Positions 6,477 to 40,999 are shown, numbered from the stretch's first letter. The stretch is DNA of 64,000 nt from an uncultured Candidatus Saccharibacteria bacterium (GCA_964403155.1 CAYOEG010000003.1:21400-85399); one strand, 5' to 3'. Notes: generated by a model from the sequence alone, not told the origin. Program-made: numbers and translations.

Positions 6477-6489
6477 TATTATTATCAAA

Positions 6490-8644: not shown

Positions 8645-8723
8645 AGGCAGTTGTATTAATATTCTGGCATATTTTTGAAATTTATTCTATAATTGCACCT
8701 GGTTTAAATATTATTAAAGAAAA

Positions 8724-9173: not shown

Positions 9174-9194
9174 TATTATTAATTACTACTTTTT

Positions 9195-9271
9195 GCGGGA
9201 GTAGTTCAATTGGTTAGAATGTCTGTTTTCCAAACAGAGGGTTGCGGGTCCGAGCCCCGTCTCCCGCTCCA
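9195..9271 (+). tRNA. tRNA-Gly (anticodon TCC), CCA encoded
   Basis: The cloverleaf reads acceptor GCGGGAG / CTCCCGC, D-stem GTTC/GAAT, anticodon stem TCTGT/ACAGA, loop TTTCCAA, T-stem GCGGG/CCCGT and discriminator U73, followed by CCA. The start GCGGGA and U73 match bacterial tRNA-Gly. An alternative register reading CCA (Trp) was rejected. Confidence 0.8.
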
Positions 9272-9312
9272 TGTACTGTAACTTATCCACATTTTGTAAT
9301 ATAATTCTTGCT

Positions 9313-9876: not shown

Positions 9877-10079
9877 TGACACCAAGAGTATGTGCCAAAA
9901 GACTAAAAGAAGTTAGAGAAGCTGTGGGTTATTCTCAGAAACAGCTTGGTTTGAGAGTAGGGTTGTCGGACAAATCAATTAGTATGTATGAGAAAGGCAC
10001 AGTGTATCCACCTGTTTCCAATCTATTAAAAATTGCCAAGGAATTAGAAAAAGACGTTAGCTATTTTATCCAAGATTAA
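9876..10079 (+). CDS. XRE-family helix-turn-helix transcriptional regulator
   Basis: The HTH_3 pattern GYSQKQLGLRVGLSDKSISMYEKG; the start overlaps the upstream stop (TAATG). Confidence 0.7.
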   Translation: MTPRVCAKRLKEVREAVGYSQKQLGLRVGLSDKSISMYEKGTVYPPVSNLLKIAKELEKDVSYFIQD

Positions 10080-28458: not shown

Positions 28459-30174
28459 CTACCAACTTCCTCCACCACCGCCACCAAATCCACCGCCACT
28501 TGATCCTCCGCTAAATCCGCTTCCGCCAAAGCTTCCATGTGATGAAGAGTAACCTCTTGAGCTATTTGTAGCAACAGCCCTAGTAGCTATTTGTTGGTTC
28601 ATATGAGTTAGAGAATTGGCTAGAATATATGAATTAAAGAAATTATTATTCCCGTCATACCACTCAGGAGGTGTTGTATATAAATCTTCAAATTCTTTAG
28701 CCCATTTCTTCTCTAAACCAAATATGATGGCATAAGGGAGTAACTTCTCAAAAACCCCAAGATATTTCTTAGGGTTATCATGGAATTCAATTCTATGCTT
28801 CTCAGCAGTATTAATATACATTTTAAGCCCTTCCAGTTCATAAAAAAGCTCATTACCTTTTGCATCACGTTTATCTATTTGCGTAGCAAATATTATTATC
28901 ACAACAAACGAGATAAGCAGCCCAAAGAACCAACTCATTGCTGCATGGTCAGAGAAAAATCCTGCAGATGCGAAGATCAAGAAAAGGCCAACAACTCCAA
29001 GTGCTAAGTATCCACCGGATATATTACTTTGCTTTTTTGAGAAATATCCATCTTCATACATTCGTTTATCCAACGATCCTCTCAAAGTATTTATTGTATT
29101 GAAGAATTTTGTGCTAAGTTTCTTTATACTTATGGTATCGCCACTATCAAACAAACCGTCGTATAATTTACGCTCATCATTGTCATCGGGAGCTGTCTTC
29201 TCGGTTTTGATAAGCTCATAATCCTTCTCGGAGATTTGTTTTATTTTTATATATTTGTTTATCGCTTGGTATATTATCTCTGCAGATATGGCGTTATTTG
29301 GTAGATTCTTCTTGTATACATATGCTGCGATTAAAGGATTGATACCCTTTGGAGCATCGTAGTGTGGGATCACAGTAAGTTTTTTGTTCTTTTTGTATAT
29401 TTTTGACAAAAAAATAACGAGAATAATAACTGGAATTGGTAAAAGAACTCCTAAGTTCGCTAATATTGTCTGAATCCGCTGTTGCGATGTTGTATCTGCG
29501 ACTGTTCCCTTTGGCATTGCTACAACAACTGTAAGCCCCTCATACACATCAAGCAGGCCCGCTTTTACAGTTAAGCTATTATATTCAGTGCTTTTCTTTG
29601 CTATGCAGTTGGTATATGTCTCTTCGTAATACCCAGTATAGCAACGATAGTCTGTGATTGTACCTGGAAGATTTATTGTGGTTTCAACATTTTGAATAGG
29701 CACTTCCCAGCCGTTCCCAGTTATGTTCAAATATAGTTCATCATGATCATCAAAGTAATTAACTGCATATGTAAGTTTGTAATCTATAACGTAGGTATAA
29801 TTGCCAATAATGGTTTCTTCTGCATCGCCAATTTTGAATATTGTGTAACCATTCGAAGAATCTTTCTCATATGAATCATACTTATCGCTGGGATTAGAAG
29901 TTTTGAAGTAGTAGAGATCCTTTAATTTGAGAAGTGTAGGCCTCGTGAATGAGCCCTGGGTTTTGTAATTTGTTGGAATCTCTCTATATATACCATGACG
30001 ATAGCTAGTAAAAACGTAATCTATCGTCTCATTGATGTCGATAGATGCATCTTGATTGAAAGTGACGTTACTGTTGAAATTCTTTATGTAATCGGAATCT
30101 GTTTGTGCGGATACCTTGCATGGTAATACAAAAGCAATTAGGCCTAAAAGGACTACAAAAAAGAATTTCTTCAT
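28459..30174 (-). CDS. DUF2207-domain membrane protein with a C-terminal Gly-rich tail
   Basis: Signal peptide, extracytoplasmic N-domain, central TM block, and the tail GSFGGSGFSGGSSGGGFGGGGGGSW. It lies downstream of LemA, as in the common LemA-DUF2207 pairing. Confidence 0.55.
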   Translation of the reverse strand: MKKFFFVVLLGLIAFVLPCKVSAQTDSDYIKNFNSNVTFNQDASIDINETIDYVFTSYRHGIYREIPTNYKTQGSFTRPTLLKLKDLYYFKTSNPSDKYDSYEKDSSNGYTIFKIGDAEETIIGNYTYVIDYKLTYAVNYFDDHDELYLNITGNGWEVPIQNVETTINLPGTITDYRCYTGYYEETYTNCIAKKSTEYNSLTVKAGLLDVYEGLTVVVAMPKGTVADTTSQQRIQTILANLGVLLPIPVIILVIFLSKIYKKNKKLTVIPHYDAPKGINPLIAAYVYKKNLPNNAISAEIIYQAINKYIKIKQISEKDYELIKTEKTAPDDNDERKLYDGLFDSGDTISIKKLSTKFFNTINTLRGSLDKRMYEDGYFSKKQSNISGGYLALGVVGLFLIFASAGFFSDHAAMSWFFGLLISFVVIIIFATQIDKRDAKGNELFYELEGLKMYINTAEKHRIEFHDNPKKYLGVFEKLLPYAIIFGLEKKWAKEFEDLYTTPPEWYDGNNNFFNSYILANSLTHMNQQIATRAVATNSSRGYSSSHGSFGGSGFSGGSSGGGFGGGGGGSW

Positions 30175-30178
30175 AAGT

Positions 30179-30730
30179 TTAGAACTTTATCTCAATATTT
30201 TTCTTTTCTTCCTCGGATGCCTCAAAGAAAGGCTCTGCTTTGAACCCAAGGATATTTGCAATTATATTGTTTGGGAAGACGACAATCATAGTATTAAAGT
30301 CTCTAACAGTTCCATTGTAGAATCTTCTTGATTTCTGAAGTGTATCTTCTAATTCCTTAAGGCTTGTTTGAAGCTCTAGGAAGTTTGTATTAGCCTTTAA
30401 TTCAGGATAATTTTCTGCGAGTGCGAATATCTTAGAGAGTCCCTTTGATAACTGATCTTCTAACTTCGCTTTTTCCTCAAAAGAACCAGCAGTCATAGCT
30501 TGTGTTCTTAATTCTGTAACTGCAGAGAATGTCTCTTTCTCATGCTTCGCGTAGCCCTTTACTATTTCTACCAAATTGGGAATCATATCGTATCTTTGTT
30601 TCAAGATTGTCTCAATATCTGCAGAGGCTTCACCTATGACAACTTTCTGCCTGGATAGCTTGTTGAATAGACCTATTACAACAAGTGCGACTAGAAGGAC
30701 AACACCCAATATTATATATAGAGCGGTCAT
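30179..30730 (-). CDS. LemA family protein
   Basis: N-terminal TM helix plus KQRYDMIPNLVEIVKGYAKHEKETFSAVTELRTQA, the LemA signature. Confidence 0.7.
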   Translation of the reverse strand: MTALYIILGVVLLVALVVIGLFNKLSRQKVVIGEASADIETILKQRYDMIPNLVEIVKGYAKHEKETFSAVTELRTQAMTAGSFEEKAKLEDQLSKGLSKIFALAENYPELKANTNFLELQTSLKELEDTLQKSRRFYNGTVRDFNTMIVVFPNNIIANILGFKAEPFFEASEEEKKNIEIKF

Positions 30731-30790
30731 GTTTTTATTTTCTTAATTTATCTTTTTATATTTTAGATATTATTATGTCCTAATGCAATA

Positions 30791-30820
30791 TATAAAAGAA
30801 ACCCCTCATTACGAGGGGTC
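30791..30820 (-). terminator. Rho-independent terminator of the lysine-rich protein gene
   Basis: On the minus strand, GACCCCTCGTAATGAGGGGT (a 6-bp GC stem) is followed by TTCTTTTATA, 28 nt after the stop. Confidence 0.6.
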
Positions 30821-30847
30821 CTACTAGCTATGAATTAAAGAAAATGG

Positions 30848-31033
30848 TTATTTCTTTTTCTTCTTTGCTACTTTCTTTGTAGCTTTCTTTTTTACCACCT
30901 TCTTTACAGTCTTCTTAGCAACTTTCTTCTTTGCTACCTTTTTGACTGCTGGCTTCTTAGTAACTTTTTTCTTTGTTACTTTCTTAGCCACTTTCTTTTT
31001 AACAACTTTTTTTGTTGTTTTACCTTTGGGCAT
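30848..31033 (-). CDS. Lysine-rich histone H1-like small basic protein (61 aa)
   Basis: MPKGKTTKKVVKKKVAKKVTKKKVTKKPAVKKVAKKKVAKK... is built from KK(V/A)xKK repeats. It is followed by its own terminator. Confidence 0.55.
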   Translation of the reverse strand: MPKGKTTKKVVKKKVAKKVTKKKVTKKPAVKKVAKKKVAKKTVKKVVKKKATKKVAKKKKK

Positions 31034-31096
31034 TTTATTTAAGGTAATAAGATTATTACTTTAATTTAACATGTAGGAGATATATGTCAATACTTC

Positions 31097-32098
31097 CTAC
31101 TTAAGTGACATGTGTATTGTAAATACTGTGTAACAGAGGTACGTAAAAATCATAATGAAGCCGGAGAGTCGACTTAAGGTTTTCATTCTCCCAAGCAATT
31201 TCATTTCGGCAAGGATAAGAATTACAACAATTGCTCCATAGATATTTACAAAGACAGTATCATTGATGACCCCATCACTAACGGGGATTTGTCTCATGAC
31301 GGATAATATTCCAATTCCTAACCCAAGGTTAAGTACATTACCACCGAAAACATTTCCCACGATAAGATCATTGTTGTTTGTTTTCGCTGCAACAATGCTA
31401 GCTACAATAGTCGGGATTGATGTACCTATACCTACAAGTGTAAGACCTAATAGATAGCTACTAATACCCGTGACCTCAGAAAATATTGGGGTCAACATTG
31501 TGATTCCAAGGGATGTGGCGAGAAGCAGAAAAACAAGAAGCCCAATACTTAGCAATTCTTTTCCAACAGATTTTGCATTTGTTTTGTGATCCTTTAGTCC
31601 TATTACATTTTTGAAATCTTCCTCGACTTCTTTATTCTTGTGAAGAAAACCATATTGAATAATTATTACCCCAGCAGAAACTAGAAATATGATTAAAATA
31701 ATACCATCTGTAAGTGTTAACTGTCTGTCGATTATTAATGCTGTAAAGAGAGCTGTAATGGCAAAATAAAGAGGGATTTCCTTCTCAAAAACCTCTTGCT
31801 TCACCATAATAGTAGTCATGAATGCGGGGATGCCTAAAGCAAGCCCAAGATTAACATAGTTTGTACCGATAAGATTACCCAGTGCAATGTCAGGTTGATT
31901 GTTCACAAATGCCATAATACTAACAAGAAGAGTTGGCGCTCCGGTAACAAAAGCCGTCAATGTTGTTCCTATGATTACATCACTGACGCCAATATTTTTG
32001 GCAAGTTTTATAGATATATTAACCAGTGCTTTGCCACAAAATGTTAACACAACAAAACATAGGATGAGACCTAGTGTAGAAAGTAGTAATGGTGACAT
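31097..32098 (-). CDS. Ca2+/Na+ antiporter (CaCA family, YrbG-like)
   Basis: Two alpha-repeats (GTTLTAFVTGAPTLLVSI...GNLIGTNYVNLGLALG and GTSIPTIVASIV...GNVFGGNVLNLGLGIG). The start was moved to the ATG at 32098 because the track start overlaps tRNA-Pro. Confidence 0.7.
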   Translation of the reverse strand: MSPLLLSTLGLILCFVVLTFCGKALVNISIKLAKNIGVSDVIIGTTLTAFVTGAPTLLVSIMAFVNNQPDIALGNLIGTNYVNLGLALGIPAFMTTIMVKQEVFEKEIPLYFAITALFTALIIDRQLTLTDGIILIIFLVSAGVIIIQYGFLHKNKEVEEDFKNVIGLKDHKTNAKSVGKELLSIGLLVFLLLATSLGITMLTPIFSEVTGISSYLLGLTLVGIGTSIPTIVASIVAAKTNNNDLIVGNVFGGNVLNLGLGIGILSVMRQIPVSDGVINDTVFVNIYGAIVVILILAEMKLLGRMKTLSRLSGFIMIFTYLCYTVFTIHMSLK

Positions 32099-32125
32099 AT
32101 TTAGCAAGCAGTTATATATAGAGAA

Positions 32126-32199
32126 TCGGGGTGACATGACTTGAACATGCGACCTCTGCGTCCCAAACGCAGCGTTCTAGCCAACTGAACTACACCCCG
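32126..32199 (-). tRNA. tRNA-Pro (anticodon TGG), no CCA encoded
   Basis: The reverse complement reads CGGGGTG-TA-GTTC-AGTTGGCTA-GAAC-G-CTGCG-TTTGGGA-CGCAG-AGGTC-GCATG-TTCAAGT-CATGT-CACCCCG-A. The C1-G72 pair and A73 are typical of tRNA-Pro. Confidence 0.85.
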
Positions 32200-32230
32200 A
32201 TGACTAGGAGGATTTTAACACATCATTAAA

Positions 32231-32259
32231 AAAGAAAAAAGGGAGGTGTATGCCTCCCT
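32231..32259 (-). terminator. Rho-independent terminator of the DUF4870 gene (hairpin flanked by T-runs on both strands)
   Basis: GGGAGG-cataca-CCTCCC followed by TTTTTTCTTT on the minus strand, 22 nt past the stop. On the plus strand it is also followed by TTTTCAAAA. Confidence 0.6.
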
Positions 32260-32281
32260 TTTCAAAATCACAATAAAAGCA

Positions 32282-32617
32282 TTAGATTGCAGACAGCAAC
32301 TTTAGTGCCAATCCAGAAACAACAGGAACATCAAATCTCTCTCCTTTGTATGCCTTTACCATTCCAACAATGATAAGAACCAATGTTAATGGGGCTAATA
32401 ACCAACCGATAACAGGAACCCATGCGAATAATTGTAGGACACCAACTAGTGCAAACTGTGCACCCATGTATCTTACGAACTCATCCTCTTTTTCAACTAA
32501 CATAAGAATTAGGCCAACTATTGGGATACATGCCAATACAGCCATCCACTGATTCTTTGAGTTGTACTTAATTCCGTCTAATGTATAGACTTTTTTAGCT
32601 TTTTTCTCTTCTGCCAT
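32282..32617 (-). CDS. DUF4870-like small membrane protein
   Basis: The pattern W..VLACIPIVGLILMLVEKEDEFVRYMGAQFALVG...VPVIGWLLAPL matches DUF4870. The start was placed at MAEEKK (32617); the track ORF extends to 32659. Confidence 0.45.
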   Translation of the reverse strand: MAEEKKAKKVYTLDGIKYNSKNQWMAVLACIPIVGLILMLVEKEDEFVRYMGAQFALVGVLQLFAWVPVIGWLLAPLTLVLIIVGMVKAYKGERFDVPVVSGLALKLLSAI

Positions 32618-32675
32618 AGTAACAAGATATAAATTAATATCTTTAGGATACAAGTACATTTCTGATTTTGCAAGG

Positions 32676-32748
32676 GGTATACTACAGGTACTTGCATGGG
32701 TATACTGTACTGGTATACTTAGGTATACATAAATTATTAGTGGTATAC
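32676..32748. promoter_or_regulatory. Cluster of five GGTATAC heptamers (core palindrome GTATAC) in the lexA promoter region; candidate operator array
   Basis: GGTATAC occurs at 32676, 32699, 32712, 32722 and 32742. The last copy is the 8-bp palindrome GGTATACC, 2 nt before the lexA ATG. The region is divergent from the DUF4870 gene. Confidence 0.4.
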
Positions 32749-32750
32749 CT

Positions 32751-33407
32751 ATGGGAGATATATTGACTGAAAAACAGGAATTGGTTTTGAAAGCAATCAG
32801 AGATTTCTTTCTTGAGAATTCCTATGCACCTTCTTTAACGGAATTACAAAGGATCTTAGGTATTACAACGAAGAGGGGTGTAGTAATACACTTGATGGCT
32901 TTAGAGAGAAAGGGGTATATCATTAGAACTAATGAGCCTAGAGGTATTAGATTGATAGATGATACTGAAGAAACAATATCTTTCGAATATATGGTCGGTA
33001 TACCTATTCTAGGGTATGTAAATGCAGGGACACCACTAGTAAACGCGAATGAGGAAAATCTAGGTATATTAAAAGTTGCCAAAGATATTATTGGGAAGGG
33101 TAAAAAGAATCTCTTCTCAGTAGTTGTTAAAGGAGATTCTATGAACGAAGCAGTGGTTGGTAACACTAAAGTATCTGATGGCAATTATTTGATTGTTGAT
33201 AAGGATGCAGATGTGTCAGATGGTGATATTGTAGTAGCAATAATAGAGAACTCAGCTACAGTTAAAAGAATCAAAAGGCTGGAGGATATGATTGTGTTGT
33301 ATCCGCAATCAAGCAATCCGATACACCAGCCTATTTTCTTAAACTTAGACTTCAATGGGTTAATCAATGGTAAGGTTGTAAGAGTATTGGAGAATCCAGC
33401 TATCTGA
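32751..33407 (+). CDS. lexA: LexA repressor (S24 peptidase)
   Basis: N-terminal winged-helix domain; the cleavage-site region; Ser in VKGDSMNEA and Lys in TVKRIKRL of the S24 catalytic dyad. Confidence 0.85.
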   Translation: MGDILTEKQELVLKAIRDFFLENSYAPSLTELQRILGITTKRGVVIHLMALERKGYIIRTNEPRGIRLIDDTEETISFEYMVGIPILGYVNAGTPLVNANEENLGILKVAKDIIGKGKKNLFSVVVKGDSMNEAVVGNTKVSDGNYLIVDKDADVSDGDIVVAIIENSATVKRIKRLEDMIVLYPQSSNPIHQPIFLNLDFNGLINGKVVRVLENPAI

Positions 33408-34101
33408 TCTCAACACTCTTAACATAGGGTTTTACATTACTTCGTAGTTTTCTTAACTCTTTTTCTGTAAATGAGTTTTGAGTCGAAAGTGATGTATTTA
33501 TAGTTTTCCCTGGGCGAAAATTTTGTATGAAATACAAATTCGCACCATTTATAAGTTCACCAATGCCTACAGACGAGTTAGTATCGTGTATCCCTTTTAC
33601 ATAAGTGGTCCTAAATTCATACTTTATTCCCGAATTCATAATTATCTTTATCGATTCTTTAACTTTTTTAAGGGTATCTGCACCCGTATAGAGTATATAT
33701 CCTTCATCTGAGTATTTTACATCCATGGATATGCAATCAAGCAAACCACTTTTTACAAGGCGCTGTAATCGATCAGGAAGTAAACCATTGGTATCAAGCT
33801 TAACTAGATACCCTAATTTTTTGATCTTTTTTATGAATGAGAGGAGCTCTTTGTAATAGAGCAGAGGTTCGCCACCAGTAATTACCACAGCATCTAACTT
33901 CCCAGATCTGCTCTCGAGATACTTAAGAATTTTCTCTTCGTCGAGTAATCGATCTTTCTTTAGAGGTTCAACGACTAGCTCGGGGTTGTGGCAATATTCA
34001 CAATGCAGATTACAGCCATATGTAAAGACAACTGCCGACAATTTCCCAGGGTAATCAATAAGCGATATTTTTTCAAAACCAACAATATTTAACATCCACA
34101 A
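33400..34101 (-). CDS. nrdG: Anaerobic ribonucleoside-triphosphate reductase activating protein (radical SAM)
   Basis: LIDYPGKLSAVVFTYGCNLHCEYCHNPEL carries the CxxxCxxC cluster motif; ITGGEPLL. TTG or ATG start at 34101/34095. Confidence 0.8.
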   Translation of the reverse strand: MWMLNIVGFEKISLIDYPGKLSAVVFTYGCNLHCEYCHNPELVVEPLKKDRLLDEEKILKYLESRSGKLDAVVITGGEPLLYYKELLSFIKKIKKLGYLVKLDTNGLLPDRLQRLVKSGLLDCISMDVKYSDEGYILYTGADTLKKVKESIKIIMNSGIKYEFRTTYVKGIHDTNSSVGIGELINGANLYFIQNFRPGKTINTSLSTQNSFTEKELRKLRSNVKPYVKSVEIR

Positions 34102-34229
34102 GAATTCATTTTAAAGAATTTTCTATCACCCCATTCCGCTTGTTTTCCAACATTCCATTGACTTATTGGTCTGATATATCCAACTACTCTGGAATAGACT
34201 TCACACCTTTGTCTTGTAACTTTTTTCAT
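34089..34229 (-). CDS. 46-aa ORF encoding the glycyl-radical C-terminal segment of class III RNR (split from nrdD, or a frameshift)
   Basis: The translation MKKVTRQRCEVYSRVVGYIRPISQWNVGKQAEWGDRKFFKMNSCGC matches the NrdD C-terminal consensus R-V-x-G-Y...N-x-G-K-Q-x-E...R (E. coli RRVCGYLG..FNAGKQEEVKRRVKH). It is too short for the ORF track, and its stop overlaps the nrdG start. Confidence 0.5.
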   Translation of the reverse strand: MKKVTRQRCEVYSRVVGYIRPISQWNVGKQAEWGDRKFFKMNSCGC

Positions 34230-34254
34230 AACTAGGACAGTAATAATTTATATA

Positions 34255-36318
34255 TTAAAATTTCTCATTGAATGGCATCCCATCTTGATAGCCAAGCTCC
34301 GCATCACACTTAGGACAATATTTATGCTCCCCAGCGATATACCCATGCTTAGGACACACACTAAAGGTAGGTGTCAGAGAAAAATATGGCAATTTATAGT
34401 TCTCTGCAACCTTCTTCACAAGGTTTTTTACACTCTCAGCGGAGGATATCTTTTCCCCAACATACAAATGCATCACAGTTCCACCTGTATATCTACATTG
34501 GAATTCATCTTGTAAGTCTAGAGCCTCAAAAATATCTTCAGTGTAATTAACAGGTATTTGGCTACTGTTGGTGTAGTAGGGAACAGAACCTGGTCTCTCT
34601 GCAATATCAGCAGCGGTTATTATATCCGGGAACTTCTTCTTATCTGCCTTTGCAAATTTGTATGTAGCTCCCTCCCCGGGGGAAGCTTCTAAGTTGAATA
34701 ATTGGTTTGTTTCTGATTGATAACTCTTCAACTTTTCTCTCATATGATCCATTATCTCTAGTGCAAATTCTCTTCCCTCCTTGGAAGTTATACCTTTTCC
34801 CTTATCTTTAAAGAAATTCATCATAGATTCATTCATTCCTAGAATACCAATAGTATTAAAATGGTTCTTGTAATATTCTCCAAAACGTTTTTTGATATTA
34901 CCTAAATAGAATTTTGAGTATGGATATAGCCCTTTATCAGTGTATTTCTCAATAAATGCTCGTTTGATCATCAGGCTTTCCTTCGCTAAGTCCATTATAT
35001 GATCCAAACGTTTCAAATAATCATGCTTGTTTGTACTAAGATACCCGATTTTTGGCAGATTAATTGTTACTACTCCGAGGCTTCCTGTTAATGGATTTGC
35101 TCCAAAAAGGCCACCGCCTCGCTTTCTTAGCTCTCGATTATCAAGTCTTAATCTGCAACACATACTTCTAGCATCGTCTGGGTTCATATCAGAATTAACG
35201 AAATTCGAGAAGTATGGAATACCGTATTTCCCTGTCATATTCCATACGGGTTTGTAATCCGAATTATCCCAATCAAAGTTCTTTGTAATGTTGTAAGTCG
35301 GGATTGGGAATGAAAAAAGTCTTCCTTGCGAATCTCCTTCCATCATTACCTCGCAGAATGCTTTGTTAAACATTGCCATTTCTTTTGTGAACTCTTTGTA
35401 TTTTTCTTTCTGTACCTTTCCTCCAATAATGATATTCTGTTCTGCAAGTTCTCCTGAAGGAATTAAATCCATGGTTATATTTGTAAAAGGTGTTTGACAT
35501 CCAACTCTTGTCGGTACATTCATGTTGTACAAGAATTCTTGCATTTTTTGTTTAACTTGCTTGTATGACAAATTGTCATATCTAATGAATGGGGCTAAAT
35601 ATGTATCAAAGCTTGAGAATGCTTGTGCTCCTGCAGCTTCATGTTGAAGAGTATAGAAGAAGTTAACACATTGGCCTAAAGCAGCCCCCAAATGTTTCGC
35701 GGGCGCAGAAGATATTTTCCCTGGGACCCCCGTAAAACCTTTCAAAAGCAAATCCTCTAAACTCCAGCCACAACAATATACCGCCAACATACCTAAATCA
35801 TGAATATGGAAATCTTTATCTATATTCGCATTAGAAATCTCTTTGGGATATATACTGTGTAACCAGTAATTTGATTGAACAGTAGTGGAGATATAGTTGT
35901 TTAATCCTTGCCATGAGTATGCCATATTACTGTTCTCATTTACCTGCCAATCAAGTTGATCAATATAACCTCTAACAAGTGTATCTGCATCTATTAAAGA
36001 TTTTATATTCATCACCTGATTCTTCAAATCAACAAACATTCCAAATGCAATGGATGTTTTCCCATGTCCCTCATCAATCAATACCTGTTTTACTACATCT
36101 GCGATTTCTTCTGTCTTAACATACTTTCGTTTGGAGTATTTTTGCACAAGCATATCTACTACTATTGTAGCCATTTCTTTAGCTCTTTTTCTATCACTTC
36201 CACCAACACTCTGGGCAGCTTTGAATATGCCGGTTGCTATTCTTTCTTTTTCAAATTTAACAATTCTTCCATCTCTCTTTCTGACCTGGAACGGGACTAG
36301 CTTTTTCTGGGCAGCCAT
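34255..36318 (-). CDS. nrdD: Anaerobic ribonucleoside-triphosphate reductase (class III), lacking the terminal glycyl-radical loop
   Basis: N-terminal ATP-cone (VRKRDGRIVKFEKERI), catalytic core (CCRLRLD...GGGLFGANPLTGSLGVVTINLPKIGY) and a C-terminal Zn-ribbon (CPKHGY...CPKCD). It ends 25 nt before the small ORF. Confidence 0.9.
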   Translation of the reverse strand: MAAQKKLVPFQVRKRDGRIVKFEKERIATGIFKAAQSVGGSDRKRAKEMATIVVDMLVQKYSKRKYVKTEEIADVVKQVLIDEGHGKTSIAFGMFVDLKNQVMNIKSLIDADTLVRGYIDQLDWQVNENSNMAYSWQGLNNYISTTVQSNYWLHSIYPKEISNANIDKDFHIHDLGMLAVYCCGWSLEDLLLKGFTGVPGKISSAPAKHLGAALGQCVNFFYTLQHEAAGAQAFSSFDTYLAPFIRYDNLSYKQVKQKMQEFLYNMNVPTRVGCQTPFTNITMDLIPSGELAEQNIIIGGKVQKEKYKEFTKEMAMFNKAFCEVMMEGDSQGRLFSFPIPTYNITKNFDWDNSDYKPVWNMTGKYGIPYFSNFVNSDMNPDDARSMCCRLRLDNRELRKRGGGLFGANPLTGSLGVVTINLPKIGYLSTNKHDYLKRLDHIMDLAKESLMIKRAFIEKYTDKGLYPYSKFYLGNIKKRFGEYYKNHFNTIGILGMNESMMNFFKDKGKGITSKEGREFALEIMDHMREKLKSYQSETNQLFNLEASPGEGATYKFAKADKKKFPDIITAADIAERPGSVPYYTNSSQIPVNYTEDIFEALDLQDEFQCRYTGGTVMHLYVGEKISSAESVKNLVKKVAENYKLPYFSLTPTFSVCPKHGYIAGEHKYCPKCDAELGYQDGMPFNEKF

Positions 36319-36341
36319 TATTTGTAGTAGTAAAAATTAAA

Positions 36342-36788
36342 TTATTTTTCTAAATTATCAATTTCCTCTCTAATATCATTCAGATCTTTAAACTCTTTAT
36401 ATACAGAAGCAAAGCGAATGTATGCCAAAGGGTCCTTGGTCTTTAACCAAGCAAGAATCATTTTACCAATCTCTTTTGATGTAACTGGTTCTTCGCTATT
36501 ATTAACATATCTTTCTACACCTTCAGCAAAATCTTCAACCTCTTGAAGGCTAATAGTGTTTTCATTAATTGCCTTCTTTATTCCTTTAACTATCTTGCTC
36601 ACATCGAATGTTTCTAAAGAGCCATCTTTTTTTAATATTGAAATATCCATCTTTTCAATTCTCTCGTATGTAGTAAATCTCTTACCACATCTAAGGCACT
36701 GTCTTCTGCGTCTTGTAGAACTATCTTCGCGGTTGTCTCTTTTGTCTACAACCTTTGTTGTATCGCAAGCACAGAATGGACATCTCAT
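36342..36788 (-). CDS. nrdR: Transcriptional repressor NrdR
   Basis: MRCPFCACDTTKVVDKRDNREDSSTRRRRQCLRCGKRFTTYE is a Zn-ribbon, followed by an ATP-cone. The start was placed at MRCPFC; the track ORF runs 66 nt further upstream. Confidence 0.85.
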   Translation of the reverse strand: MRCPFCACDTTKVVDKRDNREDSSTRRRRQCLRCGKRFTTYERIEKMDISILKKDGSLETFDVSKIVKGIKKAINENTISLQEVEDFAEGVERYVNNSEEPVTSKEIGKMILAWLKTKDPLAYIRFASVYKEFKDLNDIREEIDNLEK

Positions 36789-36796
36789 ATATTTTA

Positions 36797-36828
36797 CACA
36801 CAACATATTGTATGTATGTCCAACATAC
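36797..36828 (-). promoter_or_regulatory. Two adjacent palindromes upstream of nrdR; candidate NrdR boxes
   Basis: ACAAcATaTTGT at 36799-36810 is a near-perfect palindrome. GTATGT-cca-ACATAC at 36814-36828 is a perfect 6-3-6 inverted repeat. Both lie 10-40 nt upstream of the nrdR start, and both resemble the NrdR box acaCwAtATaTwGtgt. Confidence 0.35.
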
Positions 36829-36979
36829 CCCCAATCAGTAGTATGGTCAAGCAACCGATAGTGTGAAAGTCTATAGTATGTTGTTAGAAAAAGAGAAGTG
36901 ATTGTAAAAGAATATTACAGGATTTGACTATGAACTATCCCTTGTGTACCATATGTAATTAAGTTGAGTTCCACAACAG

Positions 36980-37474
36980 ATGATTATTGACCTCAAAGAT
37001 TTCCCTCAAATTAGAAAGCTGACTATCAAAGATAAAAGTTTGGTCTGTACATCGGGTTGGTACGATCCTATACACCCCGGACACATATCATATCTAAGAG
37101 AAGCTAGTAAACTAGCAGATTTTCATATAGCAGTAGTAAATGGAGATATGCAGGCAGTTACCAAAAAAGGGAAGCCTTTTATGCCTGCAGAAGAGAGGGC
37201 ATATATTGTGAATTCCCTTGATTTCGTAGACTTTGTAGTGGTATACGAGCATCCAACAAAATATGACTGTTGTGAAGCCCTGGATATTATTAAACCTGAT
37301 ATTTTTGCCAAAGGAGGTGACCGAGACGTAAAGGCAAAAGTGCCAGAGGCTGAGATAGTAGAAAAGAATGGAGGGACGGTAAGATACAATATTGGAAATC
37401 CAAAGCTGTGGTCAAGCTCAAACTACTTAGAAGAGTGGGTACAGTTTAAAAATTCACAAGCAGTTAACTCTTAA
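36980..37474 (+). CDS. Cytidylyltransferase-like nucleotidyltransferase (TagD/RfaE domain II-like)
   Basis: CTSGWYDPIHPGHISYL contains the HxGH motif. RAYIVNSLDFVDFVV and the KGGD segment are also present. Confidence 0.55.
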   Translation: MIIDLKDFPQIRKLTIKDKSLVCTSGWYDPIHPGHISYLREASKLADFHIAVVNGDMQAVTKKGKPFMPAEERAYIVNSLDFVDFVVVYEHPTKYDCCEALDIIKPDIFAKGGDRDVKAKVPEAEIVEKNGGTVRYNIGNPKLWSSSNYLEEWVQFKNSQAVNS

Positions 37475-38387
37475 CACCACTCAAATATTTAAATATAGCA
37501 TTAGCAGCGATAGCACCCTCACTAACTGCGGATACAACCTGCCTAAAACCATTAGATCCTGTTGTACAGTCTCCAGCAGCCCAAATGCCCTCAATATTAG
37601 TCGCCTGAGACTGATCAACCTTTATATATTTCTTCTCGTCTGTATCTATATTCAGAATATCAGGTAACAGTGAGTTTGGCTCAGACCCTATCTCTATAAA
37701 TATACCATCTAGAGCTAGTGTCTCTTGTTCATTGTAAGGCTTAGATAACCTTACTCTCTCCAATTTTGGTTCGCCCTCAAAACCGGTTGGCAATGTTTCA
37801 AAAAGAACTTCAATATTTGATCTAGAATTCAATTGATCAATCCATATAGGTTCACCACTAAATTCCTTGCCACGATAGATAACATAGACCTTCTTAGCTA
37901 TATCACTTAGCATACATGCAGACATTACTGCGGCATTTTTACCACCAACAACAGCTACTACCTTGTCTTTGTAAAACATAGCATCACATGTTGCACAGTA
38001 TGAGAGACCCTTTCCTAAATATTTCTCTTCATCAGGAAGCATAAGTTTGTTTCTTTCCGTACCTGTAGCTAAGATGATTGTCTTTGCAAAATATTCATTT
38101 TTCCCGTCAGTAAACAGATGGAAAAGAGGATCTTCTTTCTTTACATCAACTACACTTTCATATTTTACTTCTGCACCTTGATCTTTGGCTTGTTTCTCAA
38201 ATTTCATACCTAATTCCATACCAGAGATATCTGGTAAACCAGGGTAATTACAAACCTTATGCGCATCAGAGATTGTTCCCCCTATTATTTTTCCAATAAT
38301 GATATTTGACAGTTTGTATCTACTCGCATATATGCTTGCAGAGTATGCGGCTGGTCCGCTTCCTATTATTGCAATGTCGTATGTCAT
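37464..38387 (-). CDS. trxB: Thioredoxin reductase
   Basis: FAD motif IGSGPAAYSASIYASR, the redox-active CATC, and NADPH motif VVGGKNAA. Confidence 0.85.
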   Translation of the reverse strand: MTYDIAIIGSGPAAYSASIYASRYKLSNIIIGKIIGGTISDAHKVCNYPGLPDISGMELGMKFEKQAKDQGAEVKYESVVDVKKEDPLFHLFTDGKNEYFAKTIILATGTERNKLMLPDEEKYLGKGLSYCATCDAMFYKDKVVAVVGGKNAAVMSACMLSDIAKKVYVIYRGKEFSGEPIWIDQLNSRSNIEVLFETLPTGFEGEPKLERVRLSKPYNEQETLALDGIFIEIGSEPNSLLPDILNIDTDEKKYIKVDQSQATNIEGIWAAGDCTTGSNGFRQVVSAVSEGAIAANAIFKYLSGVKS

Positions 38388-38663
38388 GTATGTTAGTAAT
38401 TACAAGTTAATATATATATTCATTTTAGCATATGTGCAAAGATGGGGATATGTAATATCTATAATTGATACCCTTAGTACTTAAAGAAAGCCTTTAGAAG
38501 TGTAATAGGGTATATATAGTGAATTTTGATAGATATATTTATGAATATGTAATATATTCATAATTTCCGATATAGATCGGAGAGGGGTTTCGAGAGAGGT
38601 ATCCAGTGGAGAAATGTTAATGCTATAAATAGCAATTATCATGTCTGGATACCTCCTCATAAC

Positions 38664-38861
38664 CTATTTCCATTGATCTTGGCAATACCAAGACTCTAAT
38701 GCTGGTGAGCCCCCTTTGGGGTTCAAGTCCTTAAACTCGCGACAACCATCACTGGTACAAAAACGTGGTCCTTCGCAAAGAGGAAGGGTTGTGGGAGTGC
38801 AAGCACTCATGATGAAAACAACCATCAATAAAGCAATTACTACCAACATTAATTTTTTCAT
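38664..38861 (-). CDS. Small Cys-rich putative lipoprotein (65 aa)
   Basis: Signal peptide with a lipobox-like IMSAC. The mature part has 5 Cys (CEGPRFCTSDGC...YCQDQWK). A strong SD, GGAGAGGAG, sits 7 nt upstream. Confidence 0.45.
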   Translation of the reverse strand: MKKLMLVVIALLMVVFIMSACTPTTLPLCEGPRFCTSDGCREFKDLNPKGGSPALESWYCQDQWK

Positions 38862-39029
38862 TTTTTTCTCCTCTCCCGATTAGGGATACAAAATTTTCTA
38901 GTTTAGTGTAGTCGTACACGAACTTAGAACTTTCAAAGCATTAAAAGCTTTAAGTTCGCGTCCAACAAGAAGAAATATTTGGGAATAGGTATTTTAAAGA
39001 GCAGTATAGATTTATTCAACCTATAGTAT

Positions 39030-39038
39030 ATTATACCA
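39030..39038 (-). promoter_or_regulatory. Extended -10 (TGGTATAAT) candidate promoter giving a leader of about 160 nt for the lipoprotein gene
   Basis: The minus strand reads aaattgTGGTATAATatac. The leader contains the inverted repeat CGAACTTA...TAAGTTCG (38919-38958). Confidence 0.3.
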
Positions 39039-39051
39039 CAATTTCTTATCT

Positions 39052-39819
39052 TTAAACAACTACACCCCAATCTCTGGTATCGGTTAGTATCTCTGGGTGT
39101 TCTTTTCTAACAATAACCATATATTCAAACATCACGCTATTACCACCATTTTCGGTATGAACTGACCAACCATCCTCCTTGTCTGTAACAGCCTTCCCGT
39201 TATCATCTACAATCTGGCATTCAACACATATGACCATACCATCTACAAGTAAGTCACCAGTTTTTTGCTTTCCGAATGCAGGTACATCAGGATACTCATG
39301 CAAAGATCTTCCAATACCATGCCCACAATATTGTTTTAAAACATTAAAACCATTATCTTTTGCACACTTTTCCATCTCATAGCCCAAATCACCAGTATAA
39401 TTACCCGCAATCGCTTTCTCTACAGCATTCTCAACTGAGGCCCTACCAGCCTCTAGAAGCTTTGAATTATCCTTTGGAGGTGTGCCAACACTCCATGTCC
39501 AACAGTGATCTGTAAAATATCCCTTGTAAATTATTCCAAAGTCAATAGAAACGAGATCACCATTTTTTAGAGGTGTATTTTTAGGAATACCATGAATAGC
39601 TACATCATTAACAGAGATACAAGTATTGTATTGGTAGTCATCGACAGTTTCAAAAGAAGGTTTAACACCATACATAGTACATAGCTCTCCAGCTAAGTCA
39701 TCAATTTCTAAAGGTGTAACACCTTCTTCAATGCTCTCTCCAAGCTGTTTAAGTATATTTACAGATATCTCTGTTGCTTCACGAAGCATTAATTCATCTT
39801 TTGGATTTTTAATAATCAT
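39052..39819 (-). CDS. map: Methionine aminopeptidase type I
   Basis: The metal ligands are present in DFGIIYKGYFTDHCWTW, QYCGHGIGRSLHEYP and ECQIVDD. The start is the internal ATG 20 nt after the upstream stop; the track start overlaps the previous gene. Confidence 0.85.
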   Translation of the reverse strand: MIIKNPKDELMLREATEISVNILKQLGESIEEGVTPLEIDDLAGELCTMYGVKPSFETVDDYQYNTCISVNDVAIHGIPKNTPLKNGDLVSIDFGIIYKGYFTDHCWTWSVGTPPKDNSKLLEAGRASVENAVEKAIAGNYTGDLGYEMEKCAKDNGFNVLKQYCGHGIGRSLHEYPDVPAFGKQKTGDLLVDGMVICVECQIVDDNGKAVTDKEDGWSVHTENGGNSVMFEYMVIVRKEHPEILTDTRDWGVVV

Positions 39820-39838
39820 AACAGTATTATACCTCTTA

Positions 39839-40999
39839 CTACCCAATAATATATAGCTCCTCCTCTGCTCGGGTAACCGCTGTATAAAGCCATCTTCTCC
39901 AATTATCATCAGTCATTTGAGGGAAACGTTCCTCAAAAAGAATAACCTTTTTTGCTTGACTACCCTGTGCCTTATGCACTGTTAAAGCATAACCAAAATC
40001 AAACAAATTCATATTCTCAGAAAGATACTGCGTCAATGTTTCAGATTTCCCAAATTGATCAACACTAATAGGACCGGAGAAGATATCATCTTCACCATCC
40101 AAAGCAATCTCAGTATCATAAAAATTACCAACATCATTTTTAGATATAGAAAGTATTGTACCAGTCATACCATTAAATATTGCCATACTAGGATTGTTCT
40201 TTAAGCAAATCACACGGTCACCATATTGAGGAGTAGGTGCATCGAACTCTAATAATTGTCTAATGCCTTTATTCAAATCTACACGTGTACGATTGTATCC
40301 AACAAGGACCATTGTTTGATCATTAAAAGATTCCATTTTGCTCGATATAAATTCCTGAGTATCCTCTTCCTTTTTCGAGATTTTTCTAACTGTATCAGAA
40401 AAATCCATAAAAGGAATCTGACCATAACGTCTCGCAATCTCAGATACTTTAATAATCGGATTATCACGCTCCTGCCTAAATATTTCTTCCAATCGTAGAG
40501 TAGGGTTTGACATAAGATTGAAAGATTCTTCAATAGGGGGTAATTGCCCATGGTCGCCAGTTGCAAGCACAGGCACATCATAGCTCAAAAGATCCTCCCA
40601 TATTGTAGAAGTAACCATTGAAGCCTCATCAACAATAATTAAATCATAATCGAATTCCTCAGCTGATTTCCTTTCCCAGCCTATGATATTGTCTTTGTCA
40701 TCACAAATAGCTTTGTATATAAGGCCATGTATAGTACCTATGTAATCAGAAGTACTAATTGATCCTGCATCTTTTAATTTTCGCTGAAGCACTCTAGCAG
40801 CTTTACCAGTAAAGCTACAATATGCAATCTTAATTTTCTTTTTCTCCTTATGAATATATTGCCCTAGAATACCAAGTAATGTCGTTTTCCCAGTGCCTGC
40901 ATAACCACCAAATGTAATATATTGAGTAGGATGTTCTTTGTACCACTGTAAAATACTCTCTAATATGTTGTTTTGCTTCTCTGAAAGTTCAAATTTCAC
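39839..40999 (-). CDS. Compact SF1B RecD/Dda-like DNA helicase
   Basis: Walker A GYAGTGKTT, Walker B IIVDEASM, LATGDHGQLPP, and ALTVHKAQGSQAKKVIL (motif V/VI); 386 aa. Confidence 0.65.
   Translation of the reverse strand: MKFELSEKQNNILESILQWYKEHPTQYITFGGYAGTGKTTLLGILGQYIHKEKKKIKIAYCSFTGKAARVLQRKLKDAGSISTSDYIGTIHGLIYKAICDDKDNIIGWERKSAEEFDYDLIIVDEASMVTSTIWEDLLSYDVPVLATGDHGQLPPIEESFNLMSNPTLRLEEIFRQERDNPIIKVSEIARRYGQIPFMDFSDTVRKISKKEEDTQEFISSKMESFNDQTMVLVGYNRTRVDLNKGIRQLLEFDAPTPQYGDRVICLKNNPSMAIFNGMTGTILSISKNDVGNFYDTEIALDGEDDIFSGPISVDQFGKSETLTQYLSENMNLFDFGYALTVHKAQGSQAKKVILFEERFPQMTDDNWRRWLYTAVTRAEEELYIIG

What the first reader, a model, noticed from the sequence alone, without database searches (positions are those of the whole stretch)
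34089..34257. Class III RNR split: the glycyl-radical loop of NrdD sits in a separate 46-aa ORF between nrdD and nrdG
What the sequence shows:
- The 687-aa nrdD ORF stops at 34255, right after a Zn-ribbon (CPKH..CPKC).
- 25 nt downstream, in a different frame, a 46-aa ORF (34229->34089) reads MKKVTRQRCEVYSRVVGYIRPISQWNVGKQAEWGDRKFFKMNSCGC.
- That sequence carries the R-V-x-G-Y glycyl-radical motif and the N-x-G-K-Q-x-E...R tail.
- Its stop overlaps the nrdG start (ATGTTAA), which suggests translational coupling.

Established knowledge: in E. coli and T4 NrdD the radical loop and tail are the last ~45 residues of the same chain (RRVCGYLG..NAGKQEEVKRRVKH). The large subunit here lacks the radical Gly.

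Two readings:
- A genuinely split enzyme, with the radical carried on a small trans-acting peptide. This would be reminiscent of the GrcA 'spare part' for pyruvate formate-lyase, but as the primary arrangement.
- A frameshift, either real (pseudogenisation) or a sequencing artefact.
Basis: partly seen in the sequence, partly recalled or inferred. Interest (0 to 1): 0.7.

Follow-up and report, generated by a model that had tools for sequence, protein, structure and literature searches.

The report
Two-piece anaerobic ribonucleotide reductase
In this bacterium and many related tiny microbes, the enzyme that makes DNA building blocks without oxygen is encoded in two genes, and the short loop that carries its catalytic radical is made as a separate 46-residue protein, an arrangement I did not find described for this enzyme.

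Summary
The 687-aa nrdD (36318..34255, minus strand) matches the NrdD profile up to the zinc ribbon. The 46-aa ORF (34229..34089) matches the last ~35 profile positions, with the radical Gly at residue 17. nrdG starts inside its stop (ATGTTAA).

No single indel could fuse the frames. About 82 nt of extra DNA lie between the homologous parts, with a stop codon in each of the two frames concerned.

Evidence that the split is real:
- In 80 species-representative genomes with 57-87% identical NrdD (CPR/Patescibacteria and DPANN archaea), 79 have the same split.
- The small ORF always starts with ATG. The gap ranges from -20 to +201 nt, and the relative frame is 28/28/24.
- A canonical Shine-Dalgarno sequence precedes the ATG in lineages that use one.
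- dN/dS is about 0.08.
- nrdG follows in 79 of 80 loci.
- At least 128 stand-alone 39-74-aa homologues exist in public data.
- In two distant contigs the pieces lie 1.2 and 2.4 kb apart.

Most likely mechanism (inferred, not shown): the peptide docks into the GRD-less barrel, is activated by NrdG, and serves as an obligate, replaceable radical subunit.

I found no description of this in the searchable literature. I class it as a new variant of a known kind.

The parts
36342..36854 (-). nrdR (transcriptional repressor of RNR genes). This is the longest ORF; the likely true start is the ATG at 36788 (MRCPFCACDTTKVV).
   Evidence: Pfam Zn_ribbon_NrdR (E = 4.6e-16) plus ATP-cone (E = 1.6e-15). Start checked.
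34255..36318 (-). nrdD large subunit, 687 aa: ATP-cone, alpha/beta barrel and zinc ribbon, but no glycyl-radical loop.
   Evidence: NF006126 positions 4-650 of 684, E = 6e-301. The AF2 model matches only class III RNR structures at the top: ranks 1-35 are all NrdD, the best at E ~1e-23. pN 0.079 against pS 0.77 versus L001.
36064..36288 (-). ATP-cone of the large subunit (residues 11-85).
   Evidence: Pfam PF03477, E = 1.3e-14.
35155..35160 (-). Cys387-Cys388 in RSMCCRLR, assigned here by sequence resemblance to the two-cysteine finger-loop type that includes Thermotoga maritima NrdD. This is where the thiyl radical is expected to form.
   Evidence: C387 and C388 invariant in 39 homologues. 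T. maritima NrdD carries a CCRL in the same part of the alignment, although the two motifs are not in register there. The two-Cys finger-loop type is described in PMC9669993. That the motif lies on the finger loop is inferred, not tested.
34306..34356 (-). Zinc ribbon CPKH...CPKC (C655, H658, C668, C671). It stays on the large chain.
   Evidence: all four residues invariant. Aligns with the CPVCG region of T. maritima NrdD.
34258..34305 (-). 16-aa C-terminal tail DAELGYQDGMPFNEKF, with no counterpart in fused NrdD. Its start, D-x-E-x-G-Y, is conserved in split forms. I propose it is a docking element for the small subunit (inferred).
   Evidence: after CxxC, D in 98%, E in 96%, G in 88% and Y/F in 88% of 80 split loci. 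D672, G676, Y677, G680 and F683 invariant in the window's clade. Fused relatives have only 4-6 residues at this position.
34230..34254 (-). 25-nt AT-rich spacer between the large-subunit stop and the small-ORF ATG. It contains a TAA in the small ORF's frame.
   Evidence: No stable RNA fold (z = +1.07). No Rfam match. No terminator-like site; promoter-like matches at chance level.
34089..34229 (-). Small subunit, 46 aa: the glycyl-radical loop (SRVVG17Y) and the C-terminal WN-GK-E-R segment of NrdD, with its own ATG.
   Evidence: 128 stand-alone homologues. A separate ORF in 79 of 80 loci. dN/dS ~0.08. SD sites in SD-using relatives.
34179..34181 (-). Codon of Gly17, the predicted radical glycine.
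   Evidence: Invariant in 43 of 43 and 80 of 80 sequences. Aligns with the RIVGY glycine of T. maritima NrdD.
34203..34205 (-). Codon of Cys9, invariant in all split small subunits. Role unknown.
   Evidence: (80 of 80). Also present in about a third of fused relatives, so it is not specific to the split.
33400..34095 (-). nrdG, the radical-SAM activase. Its ATG overlaps the small ORF stop by 7 nt (ATGTTAA).
   Evidence: TIGR02495 NrdG2, E = 3e-56. Start checked. The same 7-nt overlap occurs in L001-L004, L006 and L072. nrdG lies downstream of the small ORF in 79 of 80 loci.

Best explanation
This is a genuine two-gene class III ribonucleotide reductase. The operon is nrdR - nrdD(large) - nrdD(small) - nrdG.

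The large chain carries the ATP-cone, the catalytic barrel with its Cys-Cys motif (RSMCCRLR), and the zinc ribbon. The 46-aa chain is translated from its own ATG. It supplies the piece that every characterised NrdD has at its own C-terminus: the loop with the radical glycine (Gly17) and the following WN-GK-E-R segment.

Proposed mechanism:
1. The peptide inserts into the barrel of the large chain, so that Gly17 faces the finger-loop cysteine.
2. The conserved junction-flanking segments help hold it there. These are D-x-E-x-G-Y on the large tail and R-Q-x-C on the peptide.
3. NrdG abstracts a hydrogen from Gly17.
4. The radical then shuttles to the cysteine and the substrate, as in fused NrdD.

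The radical-bearing part is therefore an obligate, separately made and in principle replaceable subunit.

Shown here: the two ORFs are real, separately initiated, co-located with nrdG, ancient and under purifying selection. Inferred: docking, activation by NrdG on the free or bound peptide, and enzymatic activity.
For: Division of the profile:
- The large ORF covers NF006126 positions 4-650. The small ORF covers 648-683.

The split is not an artefact:
- 79 of 80 GTDB species-representative loci (57-87% identity; Dojkabacteria, Falkowbacteria, Parcubacteria, Woesearchaeota, Nanoarchaeota) have the loop in a separate ORF.
- More than 100 close homologues of the large chain are 686-699 aa long.
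- 128 stand-alone small proteins were found. One exact 46-aa sequence was seen on 85 contigs.

The small ORF is translated separately rather than by recoding:
- ATG is present in 80 of 80 loci.
- The gap ranges from -20 to +201 nt, and the relative frame is 28/28/24.
- GGAGG lies 6-9 nt upstream of the ATG in SD-using lineages.
- The window's genome has few SD-like sites before any gene (5 of 48), so the absence of one here is uninformative.
- No RNA structure or Rfam family was found at the junction.

Selection acts on both pieces:
- Small ORF: pN 0.11 against pS 0.68, dN/dS ~0.08.
- Large ORF: pN 0.079 against pS 0.77.

The small piece can be encoded away from the large one:
- It is 1.2 kb downstream, behind three other genes, in L081.
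- It is 2.4 kb upstream in the phage-like contig L085.

Linkage to the activase:
- nrdG lies downstream of the small ORF in 79 of 80 loci. The start and stop overlap in the window's clade.

Precedent that a detached glycyl-radical module can work:
- YfiD/GrcA and T4 Y06I are activated by PFL-AE and complement cleaved PFL (PMC8683613).
- The NrdD glycyl radical domain is a mobile unit that leaves the barrel (PMC11226230).
Against: - There is no protein-level, transcript-level or biochemical evidence. Activity, stoichiometry and the site of activation are inferred.
- The model of the large chain alone is mediocre (pLDDT 72.5), with residues 383-413, which include the Cys-Cys motif, below 50. The alignment was shallow, so this says little either way.
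- A free peptide carrying an exposed glycyl radical would be unstable (remark in PMC11226230). Activation may therefore need a ternary complex.
- I could not check whether these genomes also carry another RNR.
Confidence: 0.82

Rival explanations
1. The split is a sequencing or assembly frameshift, or a recent pseudogene. The real gene would be one uninterrupted nrdD.
For: A stop followed by a frame change at the end of a gene is the usual signature of an indel error. The small ORF was not called as a gene in the source record.
Against: - No single indel can fuse the frames: there is a stop in both frames, and ~82 nt of extra DNA.
- The same architecture occurs in 79 of 80 independent species genomes and in hundreds of metagenome contigs.
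- dN/dS is ~0.08 on the small ORF, with synonymous sites near saturation.
Confidence: 0.01
2. One chain is made by recoding: a programmed frameshift, stop-codon read-through, or ribosomal bypass of the 25-nt gap, as in T4 gene 60.
For: The gap is short (25 nt) and the two ORFs are in the same orientation. Bypass elements are known in phage genes (bioRxiv 10.1101/2022.08.31.505936, listed).
Against: - Across relatives the gap varies from -20 to +201 nt, and the relative frame is evenly 0/1/2.
- An ATG is always present, and SD sites precede it where SD is used.
- The pieces are kilobases apart, or in reversed order, in L081 and L085.
- There is no stable fold at the junction (z = +1.07).
- The large-subunit stops are TAA in 59 loci, TAG in 17 and TGA in only 4, so an alternative genetic code does not explain them.
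Confidence: 0.03
3. The small protein is only an accessory: a GrcA-like spare part or a regulator. The large chain would work without it, or would have lost RNR function.
For: - Stand-alone glycyl-radical proteins known so far are spare parts.
- ANMV-1 virus encodes a stand-alone 144-aa zinc-ribbon-plus-loop protein. No large subunit was detected in that 38-kb record at E <= 1e-20.
Against: - The large chain has no glycyl-radical loop at all. The profile stops at position 650 of 684.
- Its tail is no more similar to the loop HMM than shuffled tails are.
- The catalytic-type residues and the large chain are under strong constraint.
- nrdG, whose only known substrate is that glycine, is retained next to the small ORF in 79 of 80 loci.
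Confidence: 0.06
4. The two chains are joined after translation, by a split intein or another form of protein ligation.
For: Relatives of this nrdD are heavily loaded with inteins: many representatives match in 2-4 separate stretches and reach 1879 aa, and intein Pfam domains are on record for several relatives.
Against: The junction tails are only 16 aa and about 8 aa. A split intein needs roughly 100 aa plus 35 aa. No intein or Hint domain was found on either piece in the window.
Confidence: 0.01

Closest known systems
Canonical single-chain NrdD with NrdG (class III RNR; T4, E. coli, T. maritima 4COI/4U3E, P. copri 8P23)
   Same: - Same family by sequence and predicted fold.
- ATP-cone, CCRL cysteine motif and zinc ribbon are present.
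- The radical motif SRVVGY and the WN-GK-E-R tail are the same.
- An adjacent NrdG2-type activase is present.
   Different: - In every solved or characterised NrdD, the glycine loop is on the same chain. In T. maritima it begins 2-3 residues after the zinc ribbon.
- Here the chain is cut between the ribbon and the loop.
- There are new tails on both sides of the cut, and a new start codon.
GrcA/YfiD of E. coli and Y06I of phage T4 (autonomous glycyl radical cofactors for pyruvate formate-lyase)
   Same: A small stand-alone protein that carries the radical glycine loop. It is activated by the cognate radical-SAM activase and completes a catalytic body that lacks a functional loop (PMC8683613).
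   Different: - GrcA is a repair part for oxygen-cleaved PFL, which has its own loop. Here the catalytic chain never has one, so the small protein is the primary and only radical carrier.
- The families differ. The peptide matches PF13597 NRDD, not the PFL-type glycine radical domain.
- A 2026 review states that formate lyases are the only GRE class with such small proteins (PMC13450708).
Split class II RNR NrdJa/NrdJb (Pseudomonas aeruginosa; Thermus phage phiYS40)
   Same: An RNR catalytic chain encoded by two consecutive ORFs. The C-terminal functional module is on the second piece (PMC9669993; PMC4520616, listed; PMC3653736).
   Different: It is a different class (B12-dependent). The second piece is large and carries an IscU-like domain, a zinc finger and a redox cysteine pair, not the radical site.
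Aeromonas phage Aeh1 NrdA-a/NrdA-b, split by the homing endonuclease gene mobE
   Same: An RNR gene in pieces that remains functional without splicing. New tails at the break are needed for assembly (PMC3045599). This parallels the conserved D-x-E-x-G-Y and R-Q-x-C junction segments here. In L081, a PDDEXK-family gene sits between the pieces.
   Different: It is class I, is known from one phage, and the split is within the barrel. Here the split is at the radical loop and is conserved across whole phylum-level lineages. There is no endonuclease gene in the window.

Membership tests
Class III RNR catalytic subunit NrdD (PF13597 / NF006126 / TIGR02487) | NrdD alpha/beta barrel domain recognised by the family profiles. 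| tested here: met
   Large ORF: PF13597 E = 5e-180; NF006126 999.6 bits against a cut-off of 548. The predicted fold matches NrdD structures.
Class III RNR catalytic subunit NrdD (PF13597 / NF006126 / TIGR02487) | Conserved cysteine on the finger loop that receives the radical. | tested here: inconclusive
   C387-C388 in RSMCCRLR are invariant in 39 homologues. T. maritima NrdD has a CCRL motif in the same part of the alignment, but not in register. The structural position is not verified: the model has pLDDT <50 over 383-413.
Class III RNR catalytic subunit NrdD (PF13597 / NF006126 / TIGR02487) | C-terminal zinc ribbon. | tested here: met
   CPKH...CPKC at residues 655-671, all four residues invariant. 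Metal binding itself was not tested.
Class III RNR catalytic subunit NrdD (PF13597 / NF006126 / TIGR02487) | Glycyl-radical motif (R-V-x-G-Y) at the C-terminus of the same polypeptide. | tested here: not met
   The large ORF ends at profile position 650 of 684. Its tail does not resemble the loop. The motif is on the separate 46-aa ORF.
Class III RNR catalytic subunit NrdD (PF13597 / NF006126 / TIGR02487) | Dedicated radical-SAM activase NrdG encoded nearby. | tested here: met
   TIGR02495 NrdG2, E = 3e-56, overlapping the small ORF stop. Present downstream in 79 of 80 loci.
Class III RNR catalytic subunit NrdD (PF13597 / NF006126 / TIGR02487) | Glycyl radical formation and NTP reduction. | not testable with these tools
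   Needs anaerobic reconstitution, EPR and an activity assay.
[quoted passage not shown] | Sequence membership in the PFL-type glycine radical domain family. | tested here: not met
   The only Pfam match of the small ORF is PF13597 NRDD. The NCBIfam matches are all NrdD models.
[quoted passage not shown] | A stand-alone small protein carrying the radical glycine loop. | tested here: met
   46-aa ORF with its own ATG. 128 stand-alone homologues.
[quoted passage not shown] | Acts as a spare part for a partner enzyme that has its own loop, damaged by oxygen. | tested here: not met
   The partner large chain has no loop of its own.
Programmed recoding / ribosomal bypass (T4 gene 60 type) | Fixed gap and frame relation, with an RNA structure at the take-off site. 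| tested here: not met
   Gap from -20 to +201 nt; frames 28/28/24. z-score +1.07.

The most novel reading that the evidence does not exclude
The small chain may be an exchangeable, consumable radical subunit. NrdG would charge it, it would dock into the large chain, and after oxygen cleavage at the glycine only the 46-aa piece would be replaced. That would be a built-in spare-part design for class III RNR, functionally parallel to the separate radical-storing subunit of class I RNR.

Viruses may exploit this by bringing their own radical piece for a host enzyme. ANMV-1 virus encodes a stand-alone zinc-ribbon-plus-loop protein, and the phage-like contig L085 carries the small gene apart from the large one.
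Probability: 0.3. Interest if true: 0.85.

Novelty: new variant of a known kind. Interest (0 to 1): 0.72.

Why it matters
**A new architecture for a well-studied enzyme.** All characterised glycyl radical enzymes, including every solved class III RNR, carry the radical glycine on the catalytic chain. The only known detached radical modules are repair parts for pyruvate formate-lyase. A 2021 paper explicitly left open whether other glycyl radical enzymes have such proteins. A 2026 review says none are known.

**It is widespread.** A natural, obligately two-piece NrdD occurs in nearly all sampled close relatives: 79 of 80 CPR/DPANN loci. It also occurs in many more distant lineages.

**An experimental handle on activation.** In fused enzymes the loop must leave the barrel to reach the activase. 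Here the loop can be added, labelled or swapped as a separate peptide.

**A possible economy for small-genome organisms.** It suggests a cheap way to restore an oxygen-damaged essential enzyme in organisms with minimal biosynthetic capacity.

**An annotation problem.**
- The small gene is missing from this genome's gene calls and is labelled "hypothetical" in others.
- Surveys that require a full-length NrdD could misjudge RNR content in CPR and DPANN genomes.

Tried and rejected
1. **Single-indel artefact.** Rejected from the sequence itself: there are stops in both frames and ~82 nt of extra DNA.
2. **Programmed frameshift or bypass.** Rejected: the gaps and frames vary, the ATG is invariant, SD sites are present in SD-using lineages, and there is no RNA structure.
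3. **Intron or other known RNA element at the junction.** The Rfam scan of 30000-40000 found only a tRNA at 32126-32199.
4. **Split intein.** The tails are far too short, and no Hint or intein domain was found.
5. **The large-chain tail (…ELGY…PFNEK) as a degenerate copy of the glycine loop left by a duplication.** The tails score no better against the loop HMM than shuffled tails do: median -1.35 against -1.40.
6. **Invariant Cys9 of the peptide as a split-specific zinc tether.**
   - The same Cys is present in about a third of fused relatives.
   - The large chain already has an invariant C/H/C/C set.
   - The role of Cys9 is left open.
7. **Modelling the complex.** The model of the large chain alone was only moderately confident.
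8. **Exact look-ups of both window proteins in the look-up of encoding contigs.** Nothing was returned. The large protein is, however, in the protein collection as P0001.
9. **Literature searches.** Searches for a split or two-subunit NrdD, CPR, Patescibacteria or Dojkabacteria with RNR found no description. Dwivedi et al. 2013 list fragmented phage nrdD genes, which they attribute to introns, inteins or unexplained breaks. They do not describe this architecture.
10. **Number of fission events.** A rough neighbour-joining tree gave 13 parsimony changes. I do not trust that number: internal branches are short, some sequences are fragments, and there is no support measure.
Full report
**1. What is in the window**

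Four genes lie head to tail on the minus strand.

| Gene | Coordinates | Notes |
|---|---|---|
| nrdR | ORF 36854..36342 | Likely start at 36788 |
| nrdD (large) | 36318..34255 | 687 aa, stop TAA |
| small ORF | 34229..34089 | 46 aa, MKKVTRQRCEVYSRVVGYIRPISQWNVGKQAEWGDRKFFKMNSCGC |
| nrdG | ATG at 34095, to 33400 | ATG overlaps the small ORF stop (ATGTTAA) |

- A 25-nt spacer (34254..34230) separates the large ORF from the small one.
- Pfam and NCBIfam divide one NrdD profile cleanly between the two ORFs.
  - PF13597 positions 1-528 fall on the large ORF and 531-562 on the small ORF (E = 8e-9).
  - NF006126 positions 4-650 fall on the large ORF and 648-683 on the small ORF.
- nrdG is an NrdG2-type activase (TIGR02495, E = 3e-56).
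- The large chain has an ATP-cone, the motif RSMCCRLR, and the zinc ribbon CPKH…CPKC followed by a 16-aa tail.
- The peptide has the radical motif SRVVG17Y.

**2. Not an indel**

- The homologous parts are separated by about 82 nt, not by one base.
- The large frame ends in TAA.
- The small ORF's frame has its own TAA 18 nt upstream of the ATG, inside the spacer.
- No single insertion or deletion can join them.
- In T. maritima NrdD only 2-3 residues separate the zinc ribbon (CPVCG, 609) from the loop segment (K612-VDEYMRIVGY). The window has 16 + 7 extra residues, a stop and a start at that position.

**3. The split is conserved and old**

*Close homologues.* The 120 best homologues of the large chain are at 74-100% identity. 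They are 679-699 aa long, or about 1000-1090 aa with inteins. One is a 657-aa entry covering 96% of the query.

*Species-representative genomes.* A scan gave 80 loci at 57-87% identity. They are labelled Dojkabacteria, Falkowbacteria, Parcubacteria, Microgenomates, Woesearchaeota and Nanoarchaeota; some carry evidently wrong MAG labels. An HMM of the small proteins finds the loop in all 80 loci. In 79 of them it lies in a separate stop-to-stop segment of 38-95 aa. Only L078 is fused.

Across the 79 split loci plus the window (n = 80):
- The small ORF always begins with ATG.
- Its median length is 46 aa.
- The gap to the large-subunit stop runs from -20 to +201 nt.
- The relative frame is 0, 1 or 2 in 28, 24 and 28 cases.
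- Large-subunit stops are TAA in 59, TAG in 17 and TGA in 4.
- nrdG follows the small ORF in 79 of 80. The same 7-nt start/stop overlap occurs in the window's clade.

*Stand-alone small proteins.* 128 stand-alone proteins of 39-74 aa match the peptide. Sources name them "hypothetical protein" or "anaerobic ribonucleoside-triphosphate reductase". One exact sequence occurs on 85 contigs.

**4. It is translated and selected**

- Lineages that use Shine-Dalgarno sites have GGAGG 6-9 nt before the small ORF's ATG. In L068, L072 and L074 this site lies inside the 3' end of the large gene.
- The window's own genome has few SD-like sites before any gene (5 of 48 ORFs). The missing SD here therefore means nothing.
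- In the window's clade, the 30-codon core of the peptide has pS 0.68 and pN 0.11, giving dN/dS of about 0.08.
- The large gene against L001 has pS 0.77 and pN 0.079.
- No promoter-like excess, terminator-like site, stable fold or Rfam family marks the junction.

**5. The two pieces are separable genes**

- *L081.* An intein-laden 1582-aa nrdD without the loop is followed by three unrelated genes: DUF3782, a PDDEXK_10 nuclease-family gene and one unknown. Only then comes a 60-aa loop ORF.
- *L085.* On this phage-like contig, a 50-aa loop ORF lies 2.4 kb upstream of a 1318-aa loop-less nrdD.
- *More distant relatives.*
  - I examined the 150 best 50%-identity cluster representatives (41-64% identity).
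  - 67 carry the loop and 83 show no loop match. About ten of the 83 are plain fragments.
  - A rough neighbour-joining tree puts the window's clade, other CPR and DPANN in one mostly split group. Other split lineages sit among fused ones. That tree has no support measure and its counts are not robust.

**6. Anatomy of the break**

- The cut falls inside what structural papers call the glycyl radical domain. It lies between the zinc site, which stays on the large chain, and the buried glycine loop plus C-terminal tail, which form the small chain. This definition of the domain comes from PMC11226230.
- Both sides of the cut carry conserved residues that fused enzymes lack or do not need.
  - Large chain, after CxxC: D (98%), x, E (96%), x, G (88%), Y/F (88%).
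  - Peptide: R (98%), Q/T, x, then an invariant Cys, five residues before SRVVGY.
- The remainder of both tails is variable.
- By analogy with the Aeh1 NrdA-a/NrdA-b tails (PMC3045599), I propose that these segments hold the pieces together. This is an inference.

**7. Mechanism**

The best-supported reading is an obligate heteromeric NrdD:
1. The peptide docks in the barrel.
2. NrdG makes the Gly17 radical.
3. Chemistry then proceeds as in fused NrdD.

Two precedents support the idea that a detached module can work:
- YfiD and Y06I are activated by the PFL activase and complement cleaved PFL (PMC8683613).
- The NrdD glycyl radical domain is a mobile unit that leaves the barrel.

Still unknown:
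- Whether activation happens on the free or the bound peptide.
- Whether the peptide exchanges.
- Whether the design serves repair after oxygen damage.

**8. Rivals**

- Artefact or pseudogene: excluded (sections 2-4).
- Recoding or bypass: excluded by the variable gap and frame, the ATG and SD sites, and the unlinked cases.
- Split intein: excluded by the tail lengths.
- "Accessory only": unlikely. The large chain has no loop of its own, its tail does not resemble one, and nrdG is retained.

**9. Novelty**

- Searches of the open-access library found no description of a two-chain class III RNR.
- Dwivedi et al. 2013 list fragmented nrdD genes in six phages, attributed to introns, inteins or unexplained breaks.
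- Databases already hold the small proteins, some with an RNR name. The sequences are therefore known, but the architecture does not appear to have been recognised.
- The search covers open-access papers only, so an earlier description elsewhere cannot be ruled out.
- I class it as a new variant of a known kind.

Noticed in passing
window 34089..34229: The 46-aa ORF is not on record as a called gene with this exact sequence. The large protein is in the collection as a 100% match, P0001, on an NCBI contig of 114,829 nt. The small gene therefore seems to be unannotated in the source genome.
   Followed up: partly
L027:5264-5325, L029:4940-5000, L033:5221-5278, L034:5277-5335, L038:5257-5320, L054:5286-5350, L062:5290-5352, L066:5266-5323: In Parcubacteria-like relatives, a conserved ~45-nt GC-rich hairpin (…GCGCGGGGAAAGCCGUUG…AUCCCGGC…) sits between the small ORF stop and the nrdG ATG. 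It has 14 predicted pairs, 6 with compensatory changes. There was no Rfam match at gathering score in the four of these loci that were scanned (L029, L034, L062; L023 does not carry it). It is absent from the window. It may be a regulatory or processing element for nrdG.
   Followed up: partly
L081:5997-7144: Three genes lie between a 1582-aa loop-less, intein-bearing nrdD and its 60-aa loop ORF: DUF3782, a PDDEXK_10 nuclease-family gene and one unknown. This may be a trace of a mobile element at the break point, which hints at how such splits arise.
   Followed up: partly
L085:3399-3551 and 6001-9957: On a phage-like contig where almost no ORF has a Pfam match, a 50-aa loop ORF lies 2.4 kb upstream of a 1318-aa loop-less nrdD. 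No nrdG was identified in the 16 kb read.
   Followed up: partly
L086:3186-3620 (ANMV-1 virus, KP703175.1): This archaeal virus encodes a stand-alone 144-aa protein with a zinc-ribbon-like CxxC…CxxC followed by an NrdD-type glycine loop (CEMYSRIVGYLRPVNQWNKGK). The 38-kb record did not match the large subunit at E <= 1e-20. It may be a viral radical module for a host NrdD.
   Followed up: partly
relatives P0241-P0390: The intein load in this NrdD lineage looks very heavy. Many representatives match the query in 2-4 separate stretches and reach 1879 aa. Intein and LAGLIDADG Pfam domains are on record for several relatives. In some loop-less forms the second zinc knuckle reads CPYPH, CPFEH or CPLDH instead of CPxC, and is followed by a ~40-aa tail (…EEELEKFG…LPKEAY…).
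   Followed up: no
window 34089..34103 and tails of L016, L019, L032, L034, L054, L062, L070, L080: Cysteine pairs are common at the very ends of the pieces. 43 of 80 small ORFs have a Cys in the last 8 residues (CGC, CxxC or CC); the window has NSCGC. 10 of 80 large-chain tails contain a Cys, for example CSDC, CETC and CC. This is reminiscent of the redox-shuttle cysteine pairs at class I/II RNR C-termini. Their function here is unknown.
   Followed up: partly
window 37464..38387 (-) and 35155..35160 (-): A thioredoxin-reductase-like flavoprotein gene (Pyr_redox_2, E = 1e-42) lies three genes upstream of nrdD, beyond nrdR and a cytidylyltransferase-like gene. NrdD has the two-cysteine CCRL motif, as in T. 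maritima NrdD. Together these may point to a thiol-dependent rather than a formate-dependent reductant. This was not tested.
   Followed up: no
window, whole: The genome has 35.9% G+C and few Shine-Dalgarno-like sites: 5 of 48 ORFs of at least 150 aa have even a 4-mer SD-like match upstream. Neighbours of the operon are a LexA-like repressor (32751..33407, +), a tRNA (32126..32199, -), a Na/Ca exchanger family protein (31097..32137, -) and a cytidylyltransferase-like protein (36980..37474, +).
   Followed up: partly
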